This document shows, one piece after another, positions 5,420-14,806 of a DNA stretch of 64,000 bases; within the stretch, counting starts at the first letter, position 1, and every line of letters starts with the position of its first letter. Location: positions 14,364 to 78,363 of the forward strand of contig JARIHC010000007.1 of assembly GCA_029288485.1 (NCBI GenBank). The letters are read 5' to 3'. The position numbers were made by a program, and so were the translations under genes. This DNA comes from Candidatus Saccharimonadota bacterium. Its GTDB lineage: Bacteria > Patescibacteriota > Saccharimonadia > Saccharimonadales > UBA4665. The notes below the pieces were generated by a model. That model was not told the DNA's origin. It worked only from the letters and a program-made list of their open reading frames with translations, and searched no databases.

Positions 5420-7582
5420 ATGCTTGAGATATCGGTTCTTATAACGGCTTGCATCTTGAATGGTCTCTTGGGGCTGGTGGTTTACCTTAAGAACCCCGAG
5501 AGCGCTACCAATAAGCTGTTTTTTGCTTTAACTGGTAGCTTTGTAGCCTGGTCCCTGGTTAATTACGCCTCTCTGCACCCGTTTTTGCTACCCCAGTTAG
5601 ATTGGATTCGTCTAGTTCTGTTTGCTGCTTCGCTTCTCTGTTTGCTGGTTTTTTTGACTTTTACGGCTTTCCCAGATGTTAAGTTAGCTGCCAGATACCA
5701 CCGAAGAGCGCTCCTGGCCACCTATCTAACAGCGGTGGTTATGATGTTGACCCTCACACCTTTTATTTTTAAATCATTAAGCTATTCCCATGGGCAGGCT
5801 AGCCCAGTGCCAGCCCCAGGAATTGGCCTATTTCTATTGCAATCTGTTGGTTTGCTAGGCGCCGGCATATTTATCATCATCCGTAAGCATCACTCCTCTC
5901 GAGACCGCAAGGTTAAGGAACAGTTACGTTTAGTATTGCTAGGGGTGGCAGGCACCTTCTTGCTAATAGTAAGCGCCAATCTGTTATTGGTGGTTATATT
6001 CAACGTTACTGCCTTGGTGTCCTTCGGTCCGGCGTTTACGCTGGTATTTAGCGCTGCTTTCGCCTACGCCATCATCCGGCACAAACTGTTCGACATTAAA
6101 GCAGCTATAGCCCGATCTGTTAGCTATCTGTTAATAGTTGGCACTATGACCATTGTTTACGGCGTGGCTCTCTTCGGTGTAATCGACATCCTATTCCAGG
6201 GGTCAAGTAATCAAAACCTAAGGCAAATTTTATCTGTTTTACTAATAACTCCTCTAGTGCTTAGCTTTCAGGCTATTCGGCGGTTCTTTGACCGCCTTAC
6301 TAATCGCCTGTTTTACAGAGAGAGTTATGATACCCAAGAAGTGCTCGACGAAGTGGGCAAAATTGTCACCGCTGAGATTGAGCTGCACCGTATTCTTAAC
6401 GACACCCGAAAAGTGTTAACTGCCTCTCTCAAGAGCTCGTTTATTGAATTTATATTGTTCAAGAACGGTAAACCGTACTTCGAGGCCCACACTCACAAAA
6501 TTATTAGCCAGAACATCTTAGCTATAGGGGCGGATATTGCCCAGCAAGAGAAGGATTTGCTAGTAACTGACGACTTTTCTAATAAGGGGCCGCTTCAGAA
6601 CCGTCTTGGCGAGGCTGGCGTATCTCTGAGTTTGCGCCTAAAAACCCGCGAACAACTGGTGGGCTATATTATCTTCGGTGCTAAGAAGGGCGGAGACGCC
6701 TATAACGCTCAAGACCGCAAACTGTTGCTTATCTTGTCAAATGAGCTGGCAGTAGCTGTTCAAAATGCCCTCCGCTTCGAAGAAATCCAGAACTTTAACC
6801 TTACCCTGCAGGCTAAAGTCGATGAAGCTACCAGAAAACTCCGTACTGCTAACGAAAAACTAAGAGAAATGGATGAAACCAAAGATGACTTCATCAGTAT
6901 GGCCTCCCATCAGCTCAGAACACCGCTTACAAGCGTAAAAGGCTATATATCAATGGTTTTAGAGGGTGATGCAGGTAAAGTTAACGAGAAGCAGCGAGAA
7001 ATGCTTGGGCAGGCCTTTTTTAGCTCTCAGAGGATGGTTTATCTGATAGCTGACCTCTTGAATGTGTCGCGCCTTAAGACGGGCAAATTTATTATTGAGC
7101 CAGCACCGGTAGATCTGGCAGAAATAGTTAAAGAAGAACTGAGCCAACTAGAGGAGACAGCTGCTTCCCGTTCTCTGACTCTCTCTTATGACAAGCCCAA
7201 AAACTTCCCTCAACTGATGCTTGATGAAACGAAGACTCGCCAGGTGATCATGAACTTTGTAGATAACGCCATCTATTACACTCCTTCTGGCGGCCATATA
7301 GCGGTTCATCTGTTAGACAATAAAACCACTGTGGAACTAAAGGTGGAGGACGACGGTATAGGGGTGCCCAAGAGTGAGCAGCCGCATCTGTTTACGAAGT
7401 TCTACAGGGCTGGCAATGCCCGTAAAGCCCGTCCAGATGGCACTGGGCTGGGACTATTTATGGCCAAGAAGGTGGTAGTAGCCCAAGGCGGTTCCTTGAT
7501 TTTTGATAGCCAAGAAGGCAAGGGCAGTACCTTTGGGTTTACCTTCTCTAAGAGCAAATTAGCCGCAAAGCAGAAAACATAA
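5420..7582 (+). CDS. sensor histidine kinase with a multi-TM N-terminal domain
   Basis: About 7 hydrophobic helices, then a GAF-like region, a coiled coil, H-box 'SHQLRTPLTS', and N/G boxes 'DNAIYYTP' and 'DDGIGV...GTGLGL'. No response regulator gene is adjacent. Confidence 0.85.
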   Translation: MLEISVLITACILNGLLGLVVYLKNPESATNKLFFALTGSFVAWSLVNYASLHPFLLPQLDWIRLVLFAASLLCLLVFLTFTAFPDVKLAARYHRRALLATYLTAVVMMLTLTPFIFKSLSYSHGQASPVPAPGIGLFLLQSVGLLGAGIFIIIRKHHSSRDRKVKEQLRLVLLGVAGTFLLIVSANLLLVVIFNVTALVSFGPAFTLVFSAAFAYAIIRHKLFDIKAAIARSVSYLLIVGTMTIVYGVALFGVIDILFQGSSNQNLRQILSVLLITPLVLSFQAIRRFFDRLTNRLFYRESYDTQEVLDEVGKIVTAEIELHRILNDTRKVLTASLKSSFIEFILFKNGKPYFEAHTHKIISQNILAIGADIAQQEKDLLVTDDFSNKGPLQNRLGEAGVSLSLRLKTREQLVGYIIFGAKKGGDAYNAQDRKLLLILSNELAVAVQNALRFEEIQNFNLTLQAKVDEATRKLRTANEKLREMDETKDDFISMASHQLRTPLTSVKGYISMVLEGDAGKVNEKQREMLGQAFFSSQRMVYLIADLLNVSRLKTGKFIIEPAPVDLAEIVKEELSQLEETAASRSLTLSYDKPKNFPQLMLDETKTRQVIMNFVDNAIYYTPSGGHIAVHLLDNKTTVELKVEDDGIGVPKSEQPHLFTKFYRAGNARKARPDGTGLGLFMAKKVVVAQGGSLIFDSQEGKGSTFGFTFSKSKLAAKQKT

Positions 7583-7591
7583 GCAATAATA

Positions 7592-7620
7592 TTGACAAAG
7601 CGTAACACTTATGATAGTAT
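7592..7620 (+). promoter_or_regulatory. candidate sigma70-type promoter of leader 1
   Basis: TTGACA (7592-7597), a 17-nt spacer, then TAGTAT (7615-7620). Same layout as the promoter of leader 2. Confidence 0.45.
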
Positions 7621-7706
7621 TAGAACATCCTCGCCTCATGGGCGTCATGGGTGGAGAACCTTCCGGTGGCTAGCAAGTGGCAGTCGGAATCCAGGTGGAT
7701 CGGGGA

Positions 7707-7720
7707 GCAACTTTACAATC
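7707..7720 (+). repeat. conserved leader motif GCAACTTTACAATC (copy 1)
   Basis: Identical 14-mer at 11867-11880. A diverged copy, GCATTTTTACAACC, is at 10585-10598. Confidence 0.7.
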
Positions 7721-7769
7721 AGGCAAGAGTTGGAAAATTGTTTAGTTTGTCGGTTTTAAAAATAAAAAT

Positions 7770-7791
7770 AGCGCTGTTTTCGGCGCTTTTT
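7770..7791 (+). terminator. rho-independent terminator-like hairpin closing leader 1
   Basis: AGCGCTG-tttt-CGGCGCT stem (7 bp, one G:T) followed by TTTTT. Confidence 0.5.
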
Positions 7792-7807
7792 ACATTTAAA
7801 ACGCAAG

Positions 7808-7830
7808 CTAGATAGTCATGGGTCTTTAAG
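7808..7830. repeat. terminal inverted repeat, left, unit 1
   Basis: AGATAGTCATGGGTCTTTAAG is identical to 10623-10643 (21/21). Confidence 0.8.
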
Positions 7831-7882
7831 CCCGGTTGAGCAGTCTATTACAGATAACTCCCGGTTTTTTGCAACCCAACCA

Positions 7883-7889
7883 ACCGACT
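7883..7889. repeat. inner inverted repeat ACCGACT, unit 1 (partner AGTCGGT at 9327-9333)
   Basis: The same CCGACT/AGTCGG pair brackets the ORF in all three units. Confidence 0.55.
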
Positions 7890-8067
7890 AAATATGTTCT
7901 ATGAAATTGTCTTTCAGTCCTCTTTGGGCGGAATGAGCAGGTGACGTAAAAGTCGCCTTTTCGTTCTGCCCAGAGTGGGTTAAGTAAAAGAAGTAAAAAC
8001 GAAACCAAGTATCGGAAATGGATCCACCGATACTGTCAACCAAACGACCTCTGAGGAGGTGTCAAAA

Positions 8068-9267
8068 GTGATCCCGAAAATGACGAACCCCAAGATCCTG
8101 ATCGCCTTCCTGGTGGTCGCGGTCTTCGCGGTTTTCGCGTCTTCGGCGTCTGCGGAATGCGGGCCCGGATTCACGAACAAGAAGCAGTTGATTCACTACT
8201 ACCAGAACAATCCTGACGCTGCACATGGGTTCCGGGAAGAACTCCTGGCCCATCCGGCTACCGGTTACCAGGCCGACGAGACTGTCGTCAACTGGCTCCG
8301 GAGTCCGGAACAGCGGGTGTTCAATGCGCCGTCTGGCTATCACCTGACGTCGAACACCTATTGCCCAGGAGGCCCCGGCCATTACGCGCCATACAACGGT
8401 CTCTTGGACAACATGGGCGGCAGGCCGATGCTGTGGCACTGCGACAAGGACGGGAAGTGTATCCCGATCCTGAAGGGTTACTGCATGAATTTCGTGTGCG
8501 GTCCCCCGGTCCATAAACACCCCAAGAAGTGCAAGTGCCGGAAGCCCAAGAAGCCGAAGTGCAAGTGCCACCACAAGAAGCATCCCAAGCCAAAGTGCTC
8601 TACCAAGAGTCCCGGTGGCGGTGGCGGTAACTGCAATACGCAGGTGGTGACGGTTACGCCGAAACAGGAATGTGAAGCGAACAACCACAGCGGCACCAAT
8701 TGTCAGCAGGTCACGGTCACGGTTGTGGCTAATTGCAGCAATGTCTCGATGGAAAATTCGGGCAACGTCAATCAAGGCGGTAACTGCAATAACGGAGGCA
8801 CGGAAACCTGCGTGGGGCAGAGCAACTGCAACACGGAAACTCCTCCGCCTCCCTGTGGCTGCAAACCGGAAGAACCGGAAGTACCCAAAAAACCGGAACA
8901 GCCGGTGGTCGAGTGGAAGCGCATTCAGGAGGTTCACCTCAAAGAGTCAACCGAATTGTGCGTGACCGTTACTCCGACTAGCGTCGTTGGCGAAGTTCAG
9001 TTCGCAGTGGTGGACGGAAAACGCAGCAATGGCGGTAAAGGCGTCTACAACGCCGGCACCAACAAGTATTGCGTGATCTACACCGCTCCGACCGAGGAAC
9101 CCGCACACGTGTGCCAGGAAGAATGGATTTCCGCCAAACTTCCTCCGGGAACGAAGTGCGATGTTGCACACGTGGCAGTTTTCTGCAACAACGGGGCTGA
9201 AACGGTCAAAGGCTCGATGGAAATTCCCGTCACTGATGCCGAAGGCAAAGGTGAAATCGTCTGGTAA
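8068..9267 (+). CDS. secreted Cys/His/Lys-rich protein, cassette cargo family member 1
   Basis: GAGGAGGTG Shine-Dalgarno, 6 nt, then GTG at 8068. Signal peptide '...ILIAFLVVAVFAVFASSASA'. Basic tract 'HKHPKKCKCRKPKKPKCKCHHKKHPKPKC'. N-C-N/Q repeats. The C-terminal domain is alignable to the other two cargo proteins. Confidence 0.75.
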   Translation: MIPKMTNPKILIAFLVVAVFAVFASSASAECGPGFTNKKQLIHYYQNNPDAAHGFREELLAHPATGYQADETVVNWLRSPEQRVFNAPSGYHLTSNTYCPGGPGHYAPYNGLLDNMGGRPMLWHCDKDGKCIPILKGYCMNFVCGPPVHKHPKKCKCRKPKKPKCKCHHKKHPKPKCSTKSPGGGGGNCNTQVVTVTPKQECEANNHSGTNCQQVTVTVVANCSNVSMENSGNVNQGGNCNNGGTETCVGQSNCNTETPPPPCGCKPEEPEVPKKPEQPVVEWKRIQEVHLKESTELCVTVTPTSVVGEVQFAVVDGKRSNGGKGVYNAGTNKYCVIYTAPTEEPAHVCQEEWISAKLPPGTKCDVAHVAVFCNNGAETVKGSMEIPVTDAEGKGEIVW

Positions 9268-9337
9268 CAGACAGTTAGGAGAAATAGACGAAATCATTCA
9301 GCTATAAGCTGATAAGAACATAAGTAAGTCGGTGAGA

Positions 9338-9435
9338 AGCGCTGTCGCGCGAAGTTGCGCGACAGCGCTACCACTGGCTGCTCGAGTAGAGAACATTTTT
9401 TGTCCCCGTGACATTAAATAGTTATCCTCGAGCAG
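9338..9435 (+). terminator. paired stem-loop module downstream of cargo 1 (hairpin A 9338-9369, hairpin B arms 9378-9386 and 9427-9435)
   Basis: Hairpin A: AGCGCTGTCGCGC-gaagtt-GCGCGACAGCGCT, a 13-bp perfect stem. Hairpin B: CTGCTCGAG...CTCGAGCAG, followed by TCTTTTA. Homologous modules follow cargo 2 and cargo 3. Confidence 0.45.
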
Positions 9436-9466
9436 TCTTTTACCCCTTATATTGAAGCTATTGAAG

Positions 9467-9482
9467 CCCAATGACTATCTAG
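9467..9482. repeat. terminal inverted repeat, right, unit 1 (decayed)
   Basis: CCCAATGACTATCTAG. Preceded by a 9-bp tandem duplication, TATTGAAGC x2, at 9450-9467. Confidence 0.65.
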
Positions 9483-9537
9483 TTTGCCTCACACCAACCA
9501 TTAATTTTAAGTCAATATTTTTGTAAAGGAGAATACT

Positions 9538-10212
9538 ATGAAGGTAAAAACTATAGTTCTTTCTGCTGCTACTGCCGCTATTATTCCGGCATTTAGCATT
9601 GCTGCTCCCGTAGCTGCTGACAGCCCGGGCGCTATTGGCGGTGGTGATATCTACCGCGTTAAAAACATAACCCAAAACACTGCTTTTGCCGACTCTACTA
9701 ACGCCAACGCCTGTGACGAGCTGCAGTATAAAGTGCTTTTGCACAACACTGGCTTCGGTGCTGCTAATGACATTACTATTAGCGCCACTACGTCTAGCGT
9801 TTCTACTGCTACTGTCAACTATGACGGCGATGGCCCCCAGAGCGTGTCTGACACGGCTACAGTTAACCTGAGCTCTGCTCAGAATATCGCTTACGAAAGT
9901 GGTTCTACGCAGCTTCTAGACAGCAAGAGCAACGTTGTTAAGTCACTTCCTGATGGTGTGACTGGTGCCGGCGTAAATGCTGGCGACCTTGACGGTTCTA
10001 CCGCTGAGTTCGTTGCTTTCAAAGCCAAAGTTAACTGCCCGACTAAGCCTCCGGTAACGCCTCCGAGCACGCCGCAGACTCCGGGTGTAGCTGGTCCTAC
10101 TACTCTGGTTAACACCGGTCCTGGTAGTGCTATAGCGGCTTTCGTAGCTGCTACGATTGCTGGTGCTTTCGGTTACCGCAAGTACCTAAGCCGCAAACTG
10201 AGCCGTCAGTAA
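9538..10212 (+). CDS. cell-surface protein with signal peptide and LPXTG-like (LVNTG) sorting signal
   Basis: N-terminal 'AATAAIIPAFSIAAPVAA'. C-terminal 'LVNTG', a hydrophobic stretch 'SAIAAFVAATIAGAFG', then a basic tail 'YRKYLSRKLSRQ'. A Pro-rich linker precedes the motif. Confidence 0.7.
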   Translation: MKVKTIVLSAATAAIIPAFSIAAPVAADSPGAIGGGDIYRVKNITQNTAFADSTNANACDELQYKVLLHNTGFGAANDITISATTSSVSTATVNYDGDGPQSVSDTATVNLSSAQNIAYESGSTQLLDSKSNVVKSLPDGVTGAGVNAGDLDGSTAEFVAFKAKVNCPTKPPVTPPSTPQTPGVAGPTTLVNTGPGSAIAAFVAATIAGAFGYRKYLSRKLSRQ

Positions 10213-10342
10213 GTGTGACAAACGTGCCCCTATCCCTTGTGGATAAGCACTAGCGCGAAATCGGTTTTTGTGCTAAGCTTGAGTTACGTTCAAGAGCACA
10301 AGACTGACCGCTCGGAAAACAAACACCTCACAGATCTTTTAG

Positions 10343-10379
10343 AAAATCCCCCTCTGGTGGAGAGGGGGATTTTTATTTT
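10343..10379 (+). terminator. rho-independent terminator
   Basis: TCCCCCTCT-ggtgg-AGAGGGGGA stem followed by TTTTTATTTT. Confidence 0.8.
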
Positions 10380-10436
10380 GGCCTCTGTTATGGTAAGATT
10401 TTACGGTTGTCAGGCGGCCACTTTTGCCCTTTTTGG

Positions 10437-10511
10437 GGCCCCATCGTCTAACGGCTAGGACACCAGGTTTTCATCCTGGCAATAGGGGTTCGATTCCCCT
10501 TGGGGTCACCA
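10437..10511 (+). tRNA. tRNA-Glu (anticodon UUC), CCA encoded
   Basis: Folded by hand. Acceptor GGCCCCA/TGGGGTC, D arm GTCT/GGAC, anticodon stem CCAGG/CCTGG with loop TTTTCAT, T arm GGGG-TTCGATT-CCCC, discriminator A, then CCA. Confidence 0.9.
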
Positions 10512-10521
10512 GTACCGCTTA

Positions 10522-10550
10522 TTGACAATTATTATAATTTATGATAAAAT
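10522..10550 (+). promoter_or_regulatory. candidate sigma70-type promoter of leader 2
   Basis: TTGACA (10522-10527), a 17-nt spacer, then TAAAAT (10545-10550). Confidence 0.45.
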
Positions 10551-10584
10551 GTTAGTATTCTTACACCTATCGGGAGGTGAAGAT

Positions 10585-10598
10585 GCATTTTTACAACC
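10585..10598 (+). repeat. conserved leader motif, diverged copy GCATTTTTACAACC
   Basis: Aligns with GCAACTTTACAATC of leaders 1 and 3. Preceded in all three by (A/G)TCG(G/A)GG(A/T)G. Confidence 0.55.
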
Positions 10599-10604
10599 CA
10601 CTAC

Positions 10605-10622
10605 GTTAATCTACAGATTAAC
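10605..10622 (+). repeat. perfect 8-bp hairpin GTTAATCT-ac-AGATTAAC abutting TIR-L of unit 2
   Basis: Read directly. A related GGTTAA...TTAACC hairpin (11885-11905) abuts TIR-L of unit 3. Both contain GTTAATCT. Confidence 0.6.
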
Positions 10623-10643
10623 AGATAGTCATGGGTCTTTAAG
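10623..10643. repeat. terminal inverted repeat, left, unit 2
   Basis: AGATAGTCATGGGTCTTTAAG. The next ~12 nt, (C/T)CCGGTT(T)GAGC, are also shared with unit 1. Confidence 0.8.
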
Positions 10644-10727
10644 TCCGGTTTGAGCTTTTTGTAAGTTCCCGGCCTAAAGTCCATTACCGACTATAAAAAC
10701 TACATACTTTTTGTGACTACAATTACC

Positions 10728-10782
10728 AGGTAAAGCAGCAAAGACGGGAAGCAAACTTCTTGCCTTTTGTGCTGCTTTACCT
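10728..10782 (+). promoter_or_regulatory. long 5'-UTR stem-loop of cargo 2
   Basis: AGGTAAAGCAGCA (10728-10740) pairs perfectly with TGCTGCTTTACCT (10770-10782), a 13-bp stem. An inner GAAG-caaa-CTTC hairpin lies inside. No T-tract follows. Confidence 0.5.
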
Positions 10783-10814
10783 AGACGTAAACCACAAAAA
10801 GAGAGGTGAACAGC

Positions 10815-11624
10815 GTGAGATTTGCAAAGATCTCAGCAATCATGATCGCCGCTTTGGCGATTGCCGCAGTTTGTGCGATCTCGGCGTCGGCTCGTCCCTA
10901 TGGAATTACCTGCGGACACAAGTCGTGCGGCACGCATGCGAAGCATCACAAGCGGCACCACAAAAGACACCACAACCGGTTCCATGGATGTCGGCATCAT
11001 CGCCCGTGCGTTACCCCAGAGCCGCCGATATGCCGCACCTTGGACAATGGCAGCTATTCCGCTGGCCGTTGCATGCCGGGCAAGATTCCGTCTTGCGCGG
11101 ATTGCGGTTTGCCACCTTGCTACATGGCCCAGCCGGTAGGGTGTGGAACGGCCTACTGCAACATTGGATATGCACCGAACACCCCATACCCGGGTTGTGA
11201 ACCTGTCTGCTACGACTGCGGAATCAACCCATGTGCATTTACCCCTAACGGGTGCCAAGGGTCGACGGAAGAACCATTTGAAGTTAAAGATCTGGAAGTT
11301 TATCAGATCGAAGGCGAAAAGGTGACTCCTGCCATCTGGGGAAGCGCGGAAGTGCTTGTACCAATTGGAACGGAAATGACCATTACGTTTGTTGCCAAAT
11401 ATGGCACTTTCGAATCCAGGGTCTTCTCTGGTTCCAAGGCGGACCCCAGTAGGGTGTACGACAAATACGAACCGCCGTGTTCAAAAGACATGCCGGCTGA
11501 CGGGTTTGATGAAGCGTGGGTAGTGGTTTATGACCGCGCCAACAAAATCTCTGCCGAATCCGAACACGTCAAATTCAACATCGAAGAACCGGAAAACGTG
11601 CACGTCGTGCATCCGTTGGGCTGA
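10815..11624 (+). CDS. secreted Cys/His-rich protein, cassette cargo family member 2
   Basis: GAGGTG, 6 nt, then GTG at 10815. The first 27 nt are near-identical to cargo 3. Signal peptide 'VRFAKISAIMIAALAIAAVCAISASA'. 'HAKHHKRHHKRHHNRFHGCRHH' tract. Many Cys-Pro motifs. C-terminal 'EAWVVVYDRANKISAESEHVKFNIEEPE'. Confidence 0.8.
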   Translation: MRFAKISAIMIAALAIAAVCAISASARPYGITCGHKSCGTHAKHHKRHHKRHHNRFHGCRHHRPCVTPEPPICRTLDNGSYSAGRCMPGKIPSCADCGLPPCYMAQPVGCGTAYCNIGYAPNTPYPGCEPVCYDCGINPCAFTPNGCQGSTEEPFEVKDLEVYQIEGEKVTPAIWGSAEVLVPIGTEMTITFVAKYGTFESRVFSGSKADPSRVYDKYEPPCSKDMPADGFDEAWVVVYDRANKISAESEHVKFNIEEPENVHVVHPLG

Positions 11625-11643
11625 AGTTCATAGTCGGTAAGGG

Positions 11644-11731
11644 GCGCTGTTCGCGCAAACTTTGCGCGAACAGCGCTGCCCCCGGCTGCTCGAGAGAGAA
11701 TTTAGCGCGAAACGCGCCCCCTCTCGAGCAG
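11644..11731 (+). terminator. paired stem-loop module downstream of cargo 2 (hairpin A 11644-11676, hairpin B arms 11686-11696 and 11721-11731)
   Basis: Hairpin A: GCGCTGTTCGCGCAAA-c-TTTGCGCGAACAGCGC. Hairpin B: CTGCTCGAGAG...CTCTCGAGCAG (11-bp arms) with an inner GCGCG-aaa-CGCGC hairpin, followed by TCATTTA. Confidence 0.45.
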
Positions 11732-11741
11732 TCATTTACAC

Positions 11742-11760
11742 CTTAAAGACCAATGACTAT
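11742..11760. repeat. terminal inverted repeat, right, unit 2
   Basis: CTTAAAGACCAATGACTAT. Confidence 0.8.
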
Positions 11761-11761
11761 T

Positions 11762-11772
11762 TATTCATCAAG
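11762..11772 (+). repeat. 11-bp direct repeat TATTCATCAAG, copy 1
   Basis: Identical to 12792-12802. Lies immediately after TIR-R of unit 2. Confidence 0.75.
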
Positions 11773-11866
11773 CCAACGCCGTCAAGAGCTAAAAGACGTA
11801 AGCTGCTCCTAAAAGCTTTTCATGTTAGTATTTATACAACATCTCTCTTGAGATTGTCGAGGTGGC

Positions 11867-11880
11867 GCAACTTTACAATC
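11867..11880 (+). repeat. conserved leader motif GCAACTTTACAATC (copy 3)
   Basis: Identical to 7707-7720. Confidence 0.7.
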
Positions 11881-11987
11881 CAGAGGTTAATCTTATAGGT
11901 TAACCGGTAGTCATTGGTCTTTAAGGCCATTCAGCCGACTACATATTTCCTCTTTAAATTGGTCAATACCGAAACGAGGTGAGAAAC

Positions 11988-12632
11988 GTGAGATTCGCAA
12001 AGGTCTCAGCAATTCTGACTGTCGCCTTCTTGCTTATTGCGGTGCAGGCCTCTGCGCGCAAGCATGAAAAGCTGCACCACTCTAAATGTGAGCATCACAA
12101 GTGCCATCTATTGCCGAAGAAAAAACATCGTTGCAAACGAAGCAAGAACCACAAGAAGCAAAGGTGCCATCGGCGCAAAGGGCGATATGCACCTAAGCTG
12201 CCCGGCGCTGTGGTAGAAGAAGACTCGCGCGTAAAAACCAATCCGGCTCCAACGCCAGAAAAGCTCGAAATCAAAAATCTGCAAATTTTTTGGTCACAAT
12301 CGAAACCTTCGATGATCGAAAAAGCTTGCGCGGATGTATATGGCGCTGTCCCCGACGCGATAGCTGTCAGTTTTGAAGCTAAAGAAAGTGTTTTTGAAAA
12401 GTCCTATTACGCGGGAGATCCCAAGGAAAACTGGCCCGAGCTTTACTGCGCTGACTATGTTCAGCCTCCTATGTGCCCGGAAGATCCAGATCCATGGTGC
12501 GAAGCATTTATTAGTGATGAAGTTTGGGCGATCGTTTTTGACGAAAGCACGGGCTTGACTGCTGAATCGGAACGCGTAACGTTTGAAATTGAAGAATTCG
12601 AAGGTGAAGAAGAACTAGAAGGGGTCGAATAA
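11988..12632 (+). CDS. secreted His/Lys/Cys-rich protein, cassette cargo family member 3
   Basis: GAGGTG, 6 nt, then GTG at 11988. Signal peptide 'VRFAKVSAILTVAFLLIAVQASA'. Basic tract 'KHEKLHHSKCEHHKCHLLPKKKHRCKRSKNHKKQRCHRRKG'. C-terminal 'EVWAIVFDESTGLTAESERVTFEIEEFE' followed by an acidic tail. Confidence 0.8.
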   Translation: MRFAKVSAILTVAFLLIAVQASARKHEKLHHSKCEHHKCHLLPKKKHRCKRSKNHKKQRCHRRKGRYAPKLPGAVVEEDSRVKTNPAPTPEKLEIKNLQIFWSQSKPSMIEKACADVYGAVPDAIAVSFEAKESVFEKSYYAGDPKENWPELYCADYVQPPMCPEDPDPWCEAFISDEVWAIVFDESTGLTAESERVTFEIEEFEGEEELEGVE

Positions 12633-12661
12633 AGTTAGCAAATACGAGTAAGTCGGTTGAG

Positions 12662-12754
12662 GTGCGTCTGGCGCGAAACTGTGCTAGGCGCACTAATACC
12701 GGCGACCGCTCGGTTTAAGAGTGCTCATTATGAGTACTCCCTAGAGCAGTCGCC
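12662..12754 (+). terminator. paired stem-loop module downstream of cargo 3 (hairpin A 12662-12693, hairpin B 12701-12754)
   Basis: Hairpin A: GTGCGTCTGGCGC-gaaact-GTGCTAGGCGCAC, 13 bp, of which three are G:T pairs on the + strand only. Hairpin B: GGCGAC.GCTC...GAGCAGTCGCC, followed by GTTTTT. Confidence 0.45.
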
Positions 12755-12790
12755 GTTTTTCCCAACAGTTTGAAGATCGGTGACTGTTCT

Positions 12791-13432
12791 CTATTCATCA
12801 AGTTTAAGTGGCTTGGCGATTGATGGCGGCAAAAGCCGCACAAAGCAAACTGCCATTAAGCCGATAGCGAAGCCGCTAACTATGTCAGCCGGCGTATGAA
12901 CACCCAAGTACAGTCGCGACCACGCAACTAGCACAATCCACAAAACAGAAACCCAGCGCCAAGCCTGGGGCAGAATAAACCACAGCGTTAAAGCTAGAGC
13001 AGTAGCTGCCAACATGTGGCCAGAAGGAAAGCCGGGACCGGTCTCTACTGCACGAACATGCAGGTTGTGGTTATGCAAAATAGCAACAGGCCGAGCTTCG
13101 TTAATAATATATTTTACGGCGAAACCGGCAACTATTGCGCCACCTGCCGTAAAGAAAAAACGCCACGATAAACGGTATTTTTTGAATAGTAAAGGTATAA
13201 GCACGCAAGCAGCAATAGGATAGCCAGCCCCTAAGCCTTCTGTAATTAATAGGGCGGGTGTCTTTAAGTCGTTTGATTGGTTGTTAATGGCATGAAACAA
13301 ATTGGCCTGCAAACCTCCAAGCGGATTTTTAGTGGCAACTAACATGCTGGCAATAAGTAATAATAAACCTATTACAAAGGTCACTATCAGGGCGATTTTA
13401 TTTTTGTTAGCAGGTTCTTGTTTGTCTGACAT
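12791..13432 (-). CDS. PAP2-family phosphatase (undecaprenyl-diphosphatase-like)
   Basis: PAP2 motifs 'NEARP', 'PSGH' and 'SRLYLGVHTPAD'. Multi-TM. Confidence 0.8.
   Translation of the reverse strand: MSDKQEPANKNKIALIVTFVIGLLLLIASMLVATKNPLGGLQANLFHAINNQSNDLKTPALLITEGLGAGYPIAACVLIPLLFKKYRLSWRFFFTAGGAIVAGFAVKYIINEARPVAILHNHNLHVRAVETGPGFPSGHMLAATALALTLWFILPQAWRWVSVLWIVLVAWSRLYLGVHTPADIVSGFAIGLMAVCFVRLLPPSIAKPLKLDE
12792..12802 (+). repeat. 11-bp direct repeat TATTCATCAAG, copy 2 (overlaps the last codons of the PAP2 gene)
   Basis: Identical to 11762-11772. The reverse complement encodes ...L-D-E-stop of the minus-strand PAP2 ORF. Confidence 0.75.
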
Positions 13433-13510
13433 CGTCGTTATTTTATCATAGCAAACTTGTGCATAGCTGAACCTGCGCGCTATAGTATTAAGGTAATAGC
13501 TAGAGGTGGG

Positions 13511-14806
13511 ATGTTTACCAAACAGACAGTTCGAGATATTGAGTTAAAAGGTAAAAAAGTCCTTCTAAGGGCGGACTATAATGTGCCGCTCGAAAACGGC
13601 AAAATTACCGATGATTACCGGATTAAACAATCATTGCCCACTATTCATTATCTGCTCGATCACGGCGCCGCAGTTATAATTTGTTCCCATCTTGGCCGGC
13701 CCAGCGGCCCAAAGGACACCCAGTACAGTCTGTTCCCAGTGGCTAAAAAATTACACCAGCTGTTAAACCGACAGGTGGAATTTGCCACTGATTGTGTAGG
13801 AGCACCGGCCGACAAGGCCGCTAAAAACCTTAAACCTGGTCAAGTACTGCTGCTAGAAAATTTACGCTTTCATCCCGAAGAAAAAGCTGATTTTGATCAA
13901 TTTGCTGCCGAACTAGCTAGCCTAGCCGATATTTTTGTACAAGATGGGTTTGGCGTGGTCCATAGGGCGCATGCTAGCACGGATGCTATTACCCGACATC
14001 TGCCCAGTGTGGCTGGTCTGCTGCTCGAAAAAGAGGTAGATGCAATTACCAGTGTTATGGAAAAGCCGGAGCGGCCGTTGGCAGCGATAGTTGGCGGCGC
14101 AAAAATCGCCGATAAAATAGACATCTTAAATCGCTGTATAGACATGGCTGATTTTGTGGCTATCGGCGGTGCTATGGCTAACACTTTTTTGGCAGCCAAA
14201 GGGGTAGATATAGGCGACAGCTTGTACGACAAGGCTGATTTACAAGTAGCTCGAAGTATCGTTAAAAAGGCTGCGGCAGAAGCTAAAAAAAGGCGTTTTA
14301 TTTTTGCTATCCCGTACGACGGAGTGGTGGTTAACAAGATAGATAAAAACACACCTACGCGGATTGTTGATTGGGGCACGCACGTGGTAGCGGATATAGA
14401 AAACTATCCACGCAGAGTGCCGAAACGCGCCGGCCAAGTTTTGAGCGACGAAATGATAGTAGATATAGGTCCTTTTAGCGGCTCGTTTATAGCTGGTTGC
14501 ATCCAGCTAGCTAATACTGTTATTTGGAACGGTGCCATGGGTATTACGGAAACAGATAGCTTACAGGGCCCGATCGGTCCGTATGCACATGGTACAGAAC
14601 TTATCATCGAAGCGCTTCTGGGAGATTTTGGCCACAAGCCCTACACCTTGGTTGGTGGTGGTGACACGGTGGGCTATATAGAAAACCGAAAGCTAGTGGA
14701 ATGTTTTGATCATGTATCGACCGGCGGGGGCGCTAGCCTGGAGCTAATGGCGGGCCGCAAACTTCCCGGCGTAGAAGCGCTGCTCGATAAAAAGAGGGTC
14801 AAGTAA
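13511..14806 (+). CDS. pgk: phosphoglycerate kinase
   Basis: 'KKVLLRADYNVP', 'SHLGRP', 'GGAKIADKI', 'VSTGGGASLE'. Start placed at the ATG giving 'MFTKQTVRD'. Confidence 0.9.
   Translation: MFTKQTVRDIELKGKKVLLRADYNVPLENGKITDDYRIKQSLPTIHYLLDHGAAVIICSHLGRPSGPKDTQYSLFPVAKKLHQLLNRQVEFATDCVGAPADKAAKNLKPGQVLLLENLRFHPEEKADFDQFAAELASLADIFVQDGFGVVHRAHASTDAITRHLPSVAGLLLEKEVDAITSVMEKPERPLAAIVGGAKIADKIDILNRCIDMADFVAIGGAMANTFLAAKGVDIGDSLYDKADLQVARSIVKKAAAEAKKRRFIFAIPYDGVVVNKIDKNTPTRIVDWGTHVVADIENYPRRVPKRAGQVLSDEMIVDIGPFSGSFIAGCIQLANTVIWNGAMGITETDSLQGPIGPYAHGTELIIEALLGDFGHKPYTLVGGGDTVGYIENRKLVECFDHVSTGGGASLELMAGRKLPGVEALLDKKRVK

What the first reader, a model, noticed from the sequence alone, without database searches (positions are those of the whole stretch)
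11762..12802. An 11-bp direct repeat brackets unit 3 and recreates the 3' end of the PAP2 gene, an att-core-like signature next to tRNA-Glu
TATTCATCAAG occurs immediately after the right repeat of unit 2 (11762-11772) and again immediately after unit 3 (12792-12802). In the second copy it supplies the last three codons and part of the stop codon of the minus-strand PAP2 gene (...L-D-E-stop).

So the segment 11773-12791, which is leader 3 plus cassette 3, is flanked by a perfect 11-bp direct repeat. Site-specific integration or tandem accretion at a core site produces exactly this.

The -35 regions of leaders 1 and 2 (ATATTGACAAAG and TTATTGACAATT) look like diverged versions of TTATTCATCAAG. 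If so, the core may recur at every unit boundary, but that resemblance is weak. The array starts directly after tRNA-Glu, a classic island integration context.
Basis: partly seen in the sequence, partly recalled or inferred. Interest (0 to 1): 0.6.

Follow-up and report, generated by a model that had tools for sequence, protein, structure and literature searches.

The report
Duplication scar between tandem gene units
The 11-base repeat is real, but it is most likely an ordinary scar: the last 11 bases of the neighbouring PAP2 gene were copied along when a small secreted-protein gene unit was duplicated next to it, and it is not a reusable docking site for mobile DNA.

Summary
TATTCATCAAG sits at 11762-11772 and 12792-12802, and these are its only two exact copies in the 912-kb genome. 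Each copy lies 2-5 nt after the right arm of a unit (U2, U3). An 11-nt direct repeat about 1 kb apart is common here (635 such pairs genome-wide), so only the placement is special.

Copy 2 is the native end of PAP2 (L-D-E plus stop), homologous to the PAP2 ends of five relatives. Copy 1 is therefore a stranded duplicate of that end.

U2 and U3 are each other's closest relatives in the leader and the SD/signal-peptide blocks. U3 is absent from every sampled relative. U2/U3 homology runs from the -10 box to the last base of the 11-mer.

Best reading (about 0.5): the junction scar of a lineage-specific tandem duplication whose right breakpoint lay 11-12 nt inside PAP2.

The att-core reading is not supported:
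- None of 15 other units in 9 genomes has a flanking repeat.
- No relative has a second copy of its PAP2 end.
- There is no repeat derived from the tRNA-Glu 3' end.
- No recombinase lies on the contig, and no DDE transposase or TnpB gene was found.
- The "terminal inverted repeats" behave as a 5'UTR/3'UTR RNA helix (G·U 50 against A·C 9, with covariation).

The parts
11762..11772 (+). Copy 1 of TATTCATCAAG: a stranded duplicate of the PAP2 terminus at the U2/U3 boundary. With the preceding T, the minus strand reads L-D-E-TAA.
   Evidence: It is the last part of the right-end homology block 11743-11772 / 12770-12802.
12792..12802 (+). Copy 2 of TATTCATCAAG: the native PAP2 3' end (TA of the TAG stop plus codons E, D, L on the minus strand).
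   Evidence: It is homologous to the PAP2 ends of G002, G005, G006, G007 and L070.
12791..13432 (-). PAP2-family phosphatase gene, 213 aa, ending ...KPLKLDE*.
   Evidence: Pfam PF01569 E=7.7e-21. Orthologues are 75-80% identical within the genus.
10437..10511 (+). tRNA-Glu (UUC), immediately upstream of the U2 promoter.
   Evidence: There is no duplicate of its 3' end in the window.
10522..11761 (+). Unit 2. Promoter TTGACA-17-TAAAAT at 10522-10550; leader hairpin; left arm 10626-10643 (with its extension from 10616); CDS 10806-11624; 3'UTR hairpins; right arm 11742-11759.
11773..11821 (+). 49-nt spacer between copy 1 and the start of U2/U3 homology. It has no homologue anywhere that was searched and contains the palindrome AAAAGCTTTT.
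11822..12791 (+). Unit 3. Extended -10 (TGTTAGTAT, with TAGTAT at 11826-11831) and no -35; leader hairpin; left arm 11908-11925; CDS 11979-12632; 3'UTR hairpins; degenerate right arm 12769-12786, whose mismatches are all G·U; then TTCTC.
7592..9487 (+). Unit 1 (paralogue upstream of the sortase-substrate gene and the tRNA). It has no flanking repeat and its end form is conserved across genera.

Best explanation
The 11-mer marks the right-hand breakpoint of a one-off tandem duplication in this lineage.

Proposed history (inferred):
- An ancestral U2-type unit (promoter, structured leader, secreted-protein gene, structured 3'UTR) lay tail to tail against PAP2.
- The unit was duplicated together with the last 11-12 nt of PAP2.
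- The downstream copy of those bases is still the working end of PAP2. The upstream copy was left non-coding between U2 and the new unit U3.
- The mature-protein part and the 3'UTR of U3 then diverged fast, while short constrained blocks stayed similar.

Shown: copy 2 is native PAP2. U2/U3 homology ends exactly at the 11-mer. U2 and U3 are reciprocal closest relatives in their 5' blocks. U3 is specific to this lineage among the genomes sampled. No other unit has a flanking repeat.

Inferred: the mechanism (replication or recombination error rather than an enzyme-directed event) and the order of events.

A side consequence is that recombination between the two 11-mers would delete U3 precisely and leave an intact PAP2 with a TAA stop.
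For: 1. Copy 2 is native PAP2. Relatives end ...KPL(R/K)LD(E/K) at the homologous position:
- G007: CTATTTGTCTAG, with the stop at the same place.
- G002: CTCATCAAG.
- G005: CTCATCGAG.
- G006: TTCGTCGAG.
- L070: TTCGTCGAG.

2. Colinear U2/U3 HSPs run from ATGTTAGTATT (10549 / 11822) to the block 11743-11772 / 12770-12802. That block is the right arm plus the 11-mer. Homology stops at the last base of the 11-mer.

3. The leader block of U3 (58 nt, 81%) and its SD/signal-peptide block (38 nt, 87%) find U2 as best or only hit among all units of 9 genomes, and the reverse also holds.

4. The U2/U3 C-terminal domain was found only in G000 (twice) and G002 (once). G003 and G086 have a single unit after tRNA-Glu, followed by pyruvate kinase.

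5. Only U3, of 16 units, has a significant flanking repeat. Only G000, of 5 genomes, has a second copy of its PAP2 end.

6. Joining the left flank of copy 1 to the right flank of copy 2 gives CCA CTT AAA CTT GAT GAA TAA on the minus strand. That is an intact PAP2 end (read).

7. Recombination between units does occur in this group. G003 U1 and U2 share an identical run of 62 aa.
Against: - The 49 nt after copy 1 (11773-11821) should, under a simple duplication, match what lies upstream of the U2 -10 box (the tRNA 3' end plus the -35). They match nothing. A filler insertion or later remodelling has to be assumed.
- The 3'UTR of U3 has no significant nucleotide match to that of U2, and the U2 3'UTR is closer to that of U1. 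Yet all 11 bases of both copies are identical, including three positions that vary synonymously between species. This hints that the repeat may be younger than the units, or that copy 1 is under some constraint.
- Copy 1 is followed by CC, as in the Arg codon of the G002 and G005 PAP2 genes, not by the TTT of G000's own PAP2. This is a weak hint of a different source allele.
- No population or read data could be examined.
Confidence: 0.5

Rival explanations
1. An already diverged unit was inserted by non-site-specific (illegitimate, or homology-anchored illegitimate) recombination. The unit could be an allele from a related strain or a relocated paralogue. DNA anchored by homology in PAP2/pgk, or in tRNA-Glu, joined illegitimately at its other end and duplicated 11 bp of the PAP2 terminus.
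For: - The repeat is perfect although the U3 3'UTR and cargo are strongly diverged.
- The 49-nt spacer has no counterpart upstream of U2.
- The tRNA-Glu to PAP2 interval holds entirely different genes in each same-genus species, and the break always falls within a few codons after L-D-E/K of PAP2. This points to frequent flank-anchored replacement.
- The CC after copy 1 matches the Arg-type PAP2 alleles.
Against: - The U3 5' blocks are closest to G000 U2 itself.
- The U2/U3 cargo domain is known only from G000 and G002.
- No donor-like sequence was found among 5.8 billion proteins, in metagenome contigs or in the genus.
Confidence: 0.2
2. One reading: the 11-mer is an att-like core, or a target-site duplication. 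Units would be mobile cassettes that a tyrosine or serine recombinase, or a transposase acting in trans, adds at this site beside tRNA-Glu.
For: - A perfect direct repeat exactly brackets one promoter-plus-gene unit.
- The locus is next to a tRNA and unit number varies among relatives.
- The genome does encode one tyrosine and two large serine recombinases.
- G005 carries a 21-nt duplicate of the tRNA-Glu 3' end about 135 nt downstream of the tRNA. This shows that tRNA-targeted integration has happened at this locus in the genus.
Against: - No core or flanking repeat exists at any other unit boundary in 9 genomes.
- The site is not conserved beyond its coding constraint.
- The repeat is not derived from the tRNA.
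- The ends of the bracketed segment are not inverted repeats. The left arm lies 135 nt inside it.
- The arms show G·U 50 against A·C 9, with covariation, so they are an RNA helix on the sense transcript rather than protein-binding DNA ends.
- The recombinases lie on other contigs, and the two serine recombinases directly abut their own tRNA targets.
- Large serine recombinases leave only a 2-bp identical core (established knowledge).
- No rve, DDE_Tnp_1 or TnpB gene was found.
- All units sit in one syntenic locus across genera.
Confidence: 0.08
3. The identity is kept by function. The 11-mer would be the conserved 3' tail of the unit transcript, for example the outer extension of the 5'UTR/3'UTR helix. 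Its overlap with the PAP2 end would then be incidental to tail-to-tail packing.
For: - In U2 the first 8 nt (UAUUCAUC) can pair 6 of 8 with GAUUAACA just 5' of the left arm.
- The equivalent outer extension is a well-supported, covarying part of the helix in other units, for example GCAAGCUAGA/UCUAGUUUGC and CACACUACA/UGUAGUGUG.
Against: - The MFE cofold ends the U2 helix at the first base of the 11-mer and puts GAUUAAC into a local leader hairpin that U3 also keeps.
- U3 pairs poorly with its copy.
- 6 of 8 pairs has about a 4% chance expectation (my calculation).
- Units in other genomes have unrelated sequence at this position.
- This does not explain why the sequence equals the PAP2 terminus.
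Confidence: 0.12
4. Chance coincidence of an 11-mer.
For: 635 direct-repeat pairs of >=11 nt lie within 1.5 kb genome-wide, about 0.7 per kb. U2 and U3 share other, out-of-register 11-mers.
Against: - Both copies lie within 6 nt of homologous right arms.
- About 36 offset combinations times 4^-11 gives roughly 1e-5 (my calculation).
- 0 of 200 shuffles reached 11 nt.
- The word occurs nowhere else in the genome.
Confidence: 0.04

Closest known systems
Tandem segmental duplication junction carrying a partial copy of the flanking gene
   Same: There are two adjacent, same-orientation paralogous units. Homology ends at a sharp breakpoint. A fragment of the neighbouring gene (11-12 nt of the PAP2 3' end) is stranded at the internal junction, while the complete gene survives at the distal end.
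   Different: The left side of the junction (the 49-nt spacer) is not recognisably homologous to the sequence upstream of the first copy. The copies are strongly and unevenly diverged.
tRNA-adjacent genomic island with attL/attR direct repeats (tyrosine- or serine-integrase mediated)
   Same: The locus is next to a tRNA gene, has variable gene content between species, and has a perfect short direct repeat bracketing a discrete segment.
   Different: The repeat derives from PAP2, not from the tRNA 3' end. There is no integrase in or beside the segment. The repeat brackets only one of three units. Relatives with other inserts have no such repeat. The real integrase/tRNA pairs of this genome are elsewhere (tRNA-Met, tRNA-Asn).
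Integron gene-cassette arrays (attC / attI, IntI)
   Same: This is an array of single-gene units, each followed by an imperfect palindromic element, with variable unit number.
   Different: The units carry their own promoters and are paralogues. No IntI was found. There is no R''/L''/L'/R' attC organisation and no GTTRRRY boundary. The palindromic arms pair across the whole gene (5'UTR with 3'UTR) and show RNA-type G·U bias.
MITE / non-autonomous transposon with target-site duplication
   Same: It is a short unit (about 1 kb) with inverted repeats and a flanking direct repeat.
   Different: The inverted repeats are internal: the left arm lies 135 nt from the repeat. No transposase is present in the genome. 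All copies sit in one syntenic locus. 15 of the 16 units lack any duplication.

Membership tests
tRNA-island att site (site-specific integration) | The direct repeat flanking the element is a copy of the tRNA 3' end or of the attB core. | tested here: not met
   The repeat equals the PAP2 terminus. There is no second copy of the tRNA-Glu 3' 25 nt in the window at <=3 mismatches.
tRNA-island att site (site-specific integration) | An integrase gene lies inside or next to the bracketed element. | tested here: not met
   All PF00589 and PF00239 hits are on contigs C3, C9, C2 and C7; none is on C6. The bracketed 1,019 bp holds only the U3 ORF.
tRNA-island att site (site-specific integration) | The core recurs at every cassette junction and in relatives with other inserts. 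| tested here: not met
   The other 15 units share at most 6-8-nt flanking words, which is chance level or helix sequence. In four same-genus relatives the longest shared word is 6-9 nt, not significant.
tRNA-island att site (site-specific integration) | Excision products exist (an empty site and a circle) joined at the core. | not testable with these tools
No near-identical strain was found in metagenome contigs (best PAP2 match 68%).
Transposon / MITE target-site duplication | Terminal inverted repeats directly abut the duplication. | tested here: not met
   The segment ends CCAACGCCG... and ...GACTGTTCTC are not inverted repeats. The left arm starts 135 nt inside the segment.
Transposon / MITE target-site duplication | A cognate transposase is present in the genome, with dispersed copies of the element. 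| tested here: not met
   There are no rve, DDE_Tnp_1 or TnpB hits (the assembly is 97% complete, so unassembled repeats are not excluded). Arm motifs occur only at this locus in G000.
Integron cassette array | An IntI integrase with attI, and attC sites with conserved core boundaries. | tested here: not met
   The single tyrosine recombinase is Xer-like in my reading of its sequence (299 aa). The unit boundaries lack a shared core.
Tandem segmental duplication | The adjacent same-orientation copies are each other's closest relatives. | tested here: met
   The leader block (81% over 58 nt) and the SD/signal block (87% over 38 nt) are reciprocal best or only hits. This does not hold for the 3'UTR, where U2 is closer to U1.
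Tandem segmental duplication | A partial copy of the flanking sequence lies at the internal junction, and homology ends there. | tested here: met
   The block 11743-11772 / 12770-12802 ends at the last base of the 11-mer. The downstream sequences (CCAACG / TTTAAG) are unrelated.
Tandem segmental duplication | The start of copy 2 is homologous to the start of copy 1. | tested here: not met
   The spacer 11773-11821 has no match to 10500-10548 or to anything else. Identity is 22% when right-justified by hand.

The most novel reading that the evidence does not exclude
The PAP2 terminus could be a working recombination core. At it, a trans-acting recombinase of this Saccharimonadales lineage would add or remove whole self-promoted secreted-protein units. 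That would be an integron-like accretion system without a linked integrase and with RNA-structured cassettes. G000 would have been caught just after one addition.
Probability: 0.06. Interest if true: 0.65.

Novelty: new member of a known kind. Interest (0 to 1): 0.2.

Why it matters
Taken alone, the repeat matters little. It dates and orients one gene-duplication event in a hypervariable locus of a soil Saccharimonadales (CPR) genome. It also offers a route for precise loss of unit 3.

Its main value is negative. It removes the one piece of evidence that the units are mobile DNA cassettes. The interesting question then shifts to the units themselves. They are a family-wide expression module in which conserved 5'UTR and 3'UTR arms pair across a fast-evolving secreted-protein gene.

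Tried and rejected
- **Rfam scan of 7000-13600:** only the tRNA was found.
- **Pfam on the three cargo proteins:** nothing above cut-off.
- **Closer strains:**
  - The U3 protein search found only itself.
  - The PAP2 scan of metagenome contigs gave at best 68% identity.
  - The DNA search of the genus found only arm and domain fragments.
  - The genome-contig scan with the U2/U3 domain found only G002.
- **Homology beyond the 11-mer:**
  - The spacer against the region upstream of U2, and against the whole genome, gave only chance 10-12-mers.
  - I compared the bases after copy 1 with PAP2 3' ends by eye and found nothing convincing beyond CC.
- **Gap-tolerant global identities between unit parts:** the shuffled baseline was 0.6-0.7, so I discarded that metric and used BLAST HSPs instead.
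- **One-mismatch copies on C9:** two copies of the 11-mer flank a serine recombinase there, but their contexts are unrelated, so I rejected them as coincidence.
- **Literature searches:** nothing relevant was found on such units in Saccharibacteria.
- **Retroposition of the unit mRNA:** considered and rejected, because the bracketed segment includes the promoter -10 and 49 nt upstream of it.
- **Assembly artefact:** considered and rejected, because an 11-nt repeat is too short to mis-join contigs at usual k-mer sizes (inference).
Full report
**Observation**

TATTCATCAAG occurs at 11762-11772 and 12792-12802 on the + strand. The window is contig C6:14364-78363 of a 912,562-bp, 9-contig assembly. 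In that whole assembly the word occurs exactly twice, at these two places; 0.54 copies are expected from composition.

The second copy overlaps the end of a minus-strand ORF (12791-13432) that is a clear PAP2-family protein (PF01569, E=7.7e-21).

Two qualifications apply:
- Exact direct repeats of 11 nt or more within 1.5 kb are frequent in this genome: 635 pairs, against 258-300 in block shuffles.
- U2 and U3 share three other perfect 11-mers.

What is not explained by chance is the placement. Copy 1 begins 3 nt after the right arm of unit 2, and copy 2 begins 6 nt after the right arm of unit 3. None of 200 shuffles gave an 11-nt word shared between the 400 nt upstream and the 40 nt downstream of unit 3.

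**Context**

The region holds three paralogous units:
- U1: 7592-9487.
- U2: 10522-11761.
- U3: about 11822-12791.

Each unit has an extended -10 box, preceded in U1 and U2 by a strong TTGACA -35, while U3 has no -35. Each also has a structured leader, a signal-peptide ORF with no Pfam family, two 3'UTR hairpins, and a pair of inverted 'arms' (TAGTCATGGGTCTTTAAG ... CTTAAAGACCAATGACTA) with a second inner pair (ACCGACT/AGTCGGT).

The organism is a Candidatus Saccharimonadales (CPR) bacterium, judged from the title of its same-genus relative G002.

The gene order is syntenic in the same genus and in other genera of the family:
- histidine kinase;
- U1;
- LVNTG sortase substrate;
- tRNA-Glu;
- a variable stretch;
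- PAP2 or pyruvate kinase;
- pgk;
- tpi.

The left-arm motif is present in 28 of 301 family genomes, with one to four units per locus.

**What the arms are**

I paired the left arm plus 10 nt against the right arm plus 10 nt in 16 units from 9 genomes. This gives 344 Watson-Crick, 50 G·U, 9 A·C and 45 other cells.
- G·U on the + strand outnumbers A·C, which would be G·U on the other strand, by more than 5 to 1.
- Counting the six U1 orthologues once, my own tally is 33 against 9.
- U3 alone has 8 G·U and 1 A·C.

On 15 distinct rows, 87.9% of cells pair. Twelve of 28 pairs show changes on both sides, for example CUAGA/UCUAG to CUACA/UGUAG, and UAGUC/GACUA to CAGUC/GACUG. No shuffle of 500 reaches the observed values, and slid controls fall to 31-44% paired.

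RNA cofolding of leader and trailer recovers both long-range helices for U1 and U2.

So the 'terminal inverted repeats' behave as a 5'UTR/3'UTR helix of the sense transcript, not as DNA ends for a recombinase. This removes the main structural argument for mobile cassettes.

**What the two copies are**

The PAP2 genes of relatives end at the homologous position with ...KPL(R/K/H)LD(E/K/D), followed by a short variable tail. In window orientation:

| Genome | PAP2 3' end | Protein end |
|---|---|---|
| G007 | CTA TTT GTC TAG | LDK*, stop at the same place as in G000 |
| G006 | TTA CTT TTC TTC GTC GAG | LDEEK* |
| G005 | TTA CTT CTC ATC GAG | LDEK* |
| G002 | CTC ATC AAG, then a longer tail | LDE... 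|
| L070 (metagenome) | TTA GTT TTC GTC GAG | LDEN* |

More distant homologues carry LDEETPLLNDSW-type tails.

Copy 2 is therefore ordinary PAP2 coding sequence that drifts at synonymous sites between species. It follows that copy 1 is a duplicate of the PAP2 end, stranded between U2 and U3. With the preceding T, its minus strand reads L-D-E-TAA.

Joining the left flank of copy 1 to the right flank of copy 2 gives an intact PAP2 end, CCA CTT AAA CTT GAT GAA TAA (read).

**Is it a recurrent core?**

No.
- Among 16 units in 9 genomes only U3 has a significant flanking repeat. The others share 6-8-nt words at chance level, or the helix sequence TAGTTTG.
- Among five same-genus genomes only G000 has a second copy of its PAP2 end inside the tRNA-Glu to PAP2 interval.
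- In G005, G006 and G007 that interval contains no unit at all, only unrelated genes. In G002 it holds three other genes, one U2-type unit and two more genes. G003 and G086 have one unit followed by pyruvate kinase.

- There is no duplicate of the tRNA-Glu 3' end in the window.

**Enzymes**

The genome encodes one tyrosine recombinase (299 aa, Xer-like by its sequence) on C3. It also encodes two large serine recombinases, on C9 and C2.
- Both serine recombinase ORFs run into tRNA genes (tRNA-Met and tRNA-Asn). This is what a real tRNA-targeted integrated element looks like in this genome. Nothing comparable lies at tRNA-Glu.
- No rve, DDE_Tnp_1 or TnpB-type gene was detected. The assembly is 97% complete.
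- Two one-mismatch copies of the 11-mer that happen to flank the C9 recombinase have unrelated contexts. I take them as coincidence.

**How the repeat arose**

Nucleotide HSPs between U2 and U3 are colinear:
- the -10 box ATGTTAGTATT (10549 / 11822);
- the leader hairpin plus left arm (58 nt, 81%);
- the SD, start and signal peptide (38 nt, 87%);
- a His/Lys-rich patch (21 nt);
- the right arm plus the 11-mer (33 nt, 76%, with one 3-nt gap).

Homology stops at the last base of the 11-mer.

Against all units from 9 genomes, the U3 leader and signal blocks hit U2 best or only, and the reverse also holds. The U2/U3 C-terminal domain was found only in G000 (twice) and G002 (once). No relative has a U3 counterpart.

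The simplest account is a lineage-specific tandem duplication of a unit that lay tail to tail against PAP2, with the right breakpoint 11-12 nt inside PAP2.

Recombination among units is independently visible: G003 U1 and U2 share an identical 62-aa stretch.

**What does not fit**

- The 49 nt after copy 1 (11773-11821) have no homologue upstream of U2 or anywhere else.
- The U3 3'UTR has no significant match to that of U2, while the U2 3'UTR resembles that of U1.
- Yet all 11 bases are identical in both copies, including three positions that vary synonymously between species.
- Copy 1 is followed by CC, like the Arg codon of other species' PAP2, not by G000's own TTT.

These points leave room for two alternatives:
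- Insertion of an already diverged unit by illegitimate, flank-anchored recombination (about 0.2).
- Some constraint on copy 1. Its first 8 nt can pair 6 of 8 with the U2 leader, but the MFE fold prefers a local hairpin (about 0.1).

A site-specific or transposition origin keeps under 0.1, and chance about 0.04.

**Not done**

No strain closer than 68-80% PAP2 identity was found.

**Verdict**

This is a real but ordinary duplication scar. Its interest as a finding is low (0.2). The context it sits in is the more notable object: a family-wide secreted-protein module with 5'/3' UTR pairing and fast-evolving cargo. That module is covered by other findings on this window.

Noticed in passing
window 7803-7830 / 9461-9487, 10616-10643 / 11742-11769, 11908-11925 / 12769-12786; also loci L027-L031 and L064-L069: The unit 'terminal inverted repeats' form a long-range 5'UTR/3'UTR helix on the sense RNA. 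Across 16 units from 9 genomes there are 50 G·U against 9 A·C cells. On the 15 distinct rows, 12 of 28 pairs show compensatory changes and 87.9% of cells pair. The motif occurs in 28 of 301 genomes of the family.
   Followed up: partly
L064 (G003:C2) units at about 6258-7984 and 9333-10677: The two units of G003 encode an identical 62-aa C-terminal stretch (HLETIQELETEEVRVICAHVESPNNDPVTVHFEAEYGEFANSGTGSAVSGGRSCATYTAPPE) in otherwise different proteins. This indicates recent gene conversion between units.
   Followed up: no
L029 (G005:C9), about 135 nt downstream of tRNA-Glu: A 21-nt near-perfect duplicate of the tRNA-Glu 3' end (ATTCCCCTTGAGGTCACCA...) lies about 135 nt after the tRNA. It looks like an att-type remnant of a past integration at this tRNA in a same-genus species.
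   Followed up: no
G000 C9:181879-183465 and C2:150733-152220 (L082, L083): Two large serine recombinase genes (528 and 495 aa) have 3' ends that run into tRNA-Met and tRNA-Asn genes. They are probably integrated elements targeting tRNAs.
   Followed up: partly
window about 7741-7755 and 9478-9487; the same in the U1 orthologues of G002, G003, G006, G007 and G086: U1-type leaders carry TAGTTTG(T) about 70-80 nt upstream of the left arm. It is identical to the outer 3' extension of the long-range helix (TCTAGTTTG). Either copy could pair with GCAAGCTAGA, so this is a possible alternative-pairing switch. It sits next to a terminator-like hairpin at 7770-7787.
   Followed up: no
PAP2 3' ends: window 12791-12810; L027-L030, L070-L080: PAP2 proteins of the genus all stop within 0-2 codons after ...LD(E/K), or carry an unrelated tail. 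More distant homologues keep a conserved tail of about 10 aa (…TPLLNDSW). The right edge of the hypervariable interval therefore always cuts at the same point of PAP2.
   Followed up: partly
window 11756-11785 (minus strand) and 11811-11820: A promoter-like TTGACG-18-AATAGT on the minus strand spans copy 1 and points into the U2 3'UTR (9 of 12 matches, within chance expectation). The spacer contains the perfect palindrome AAAAGCTTTT just upstream of the U3 -10 box.
   Followed up: no
window 8059-9267, 10806-11624, 11979-12632: The cargo genes of U1 and U2 are richer in G+C than their neighbours (GC 0.56 and 0.54, GC3 0.70 and 0.59, against a window GC of 0.47). U3 is not (0.48, GC3 0.47).
   Followed up: no
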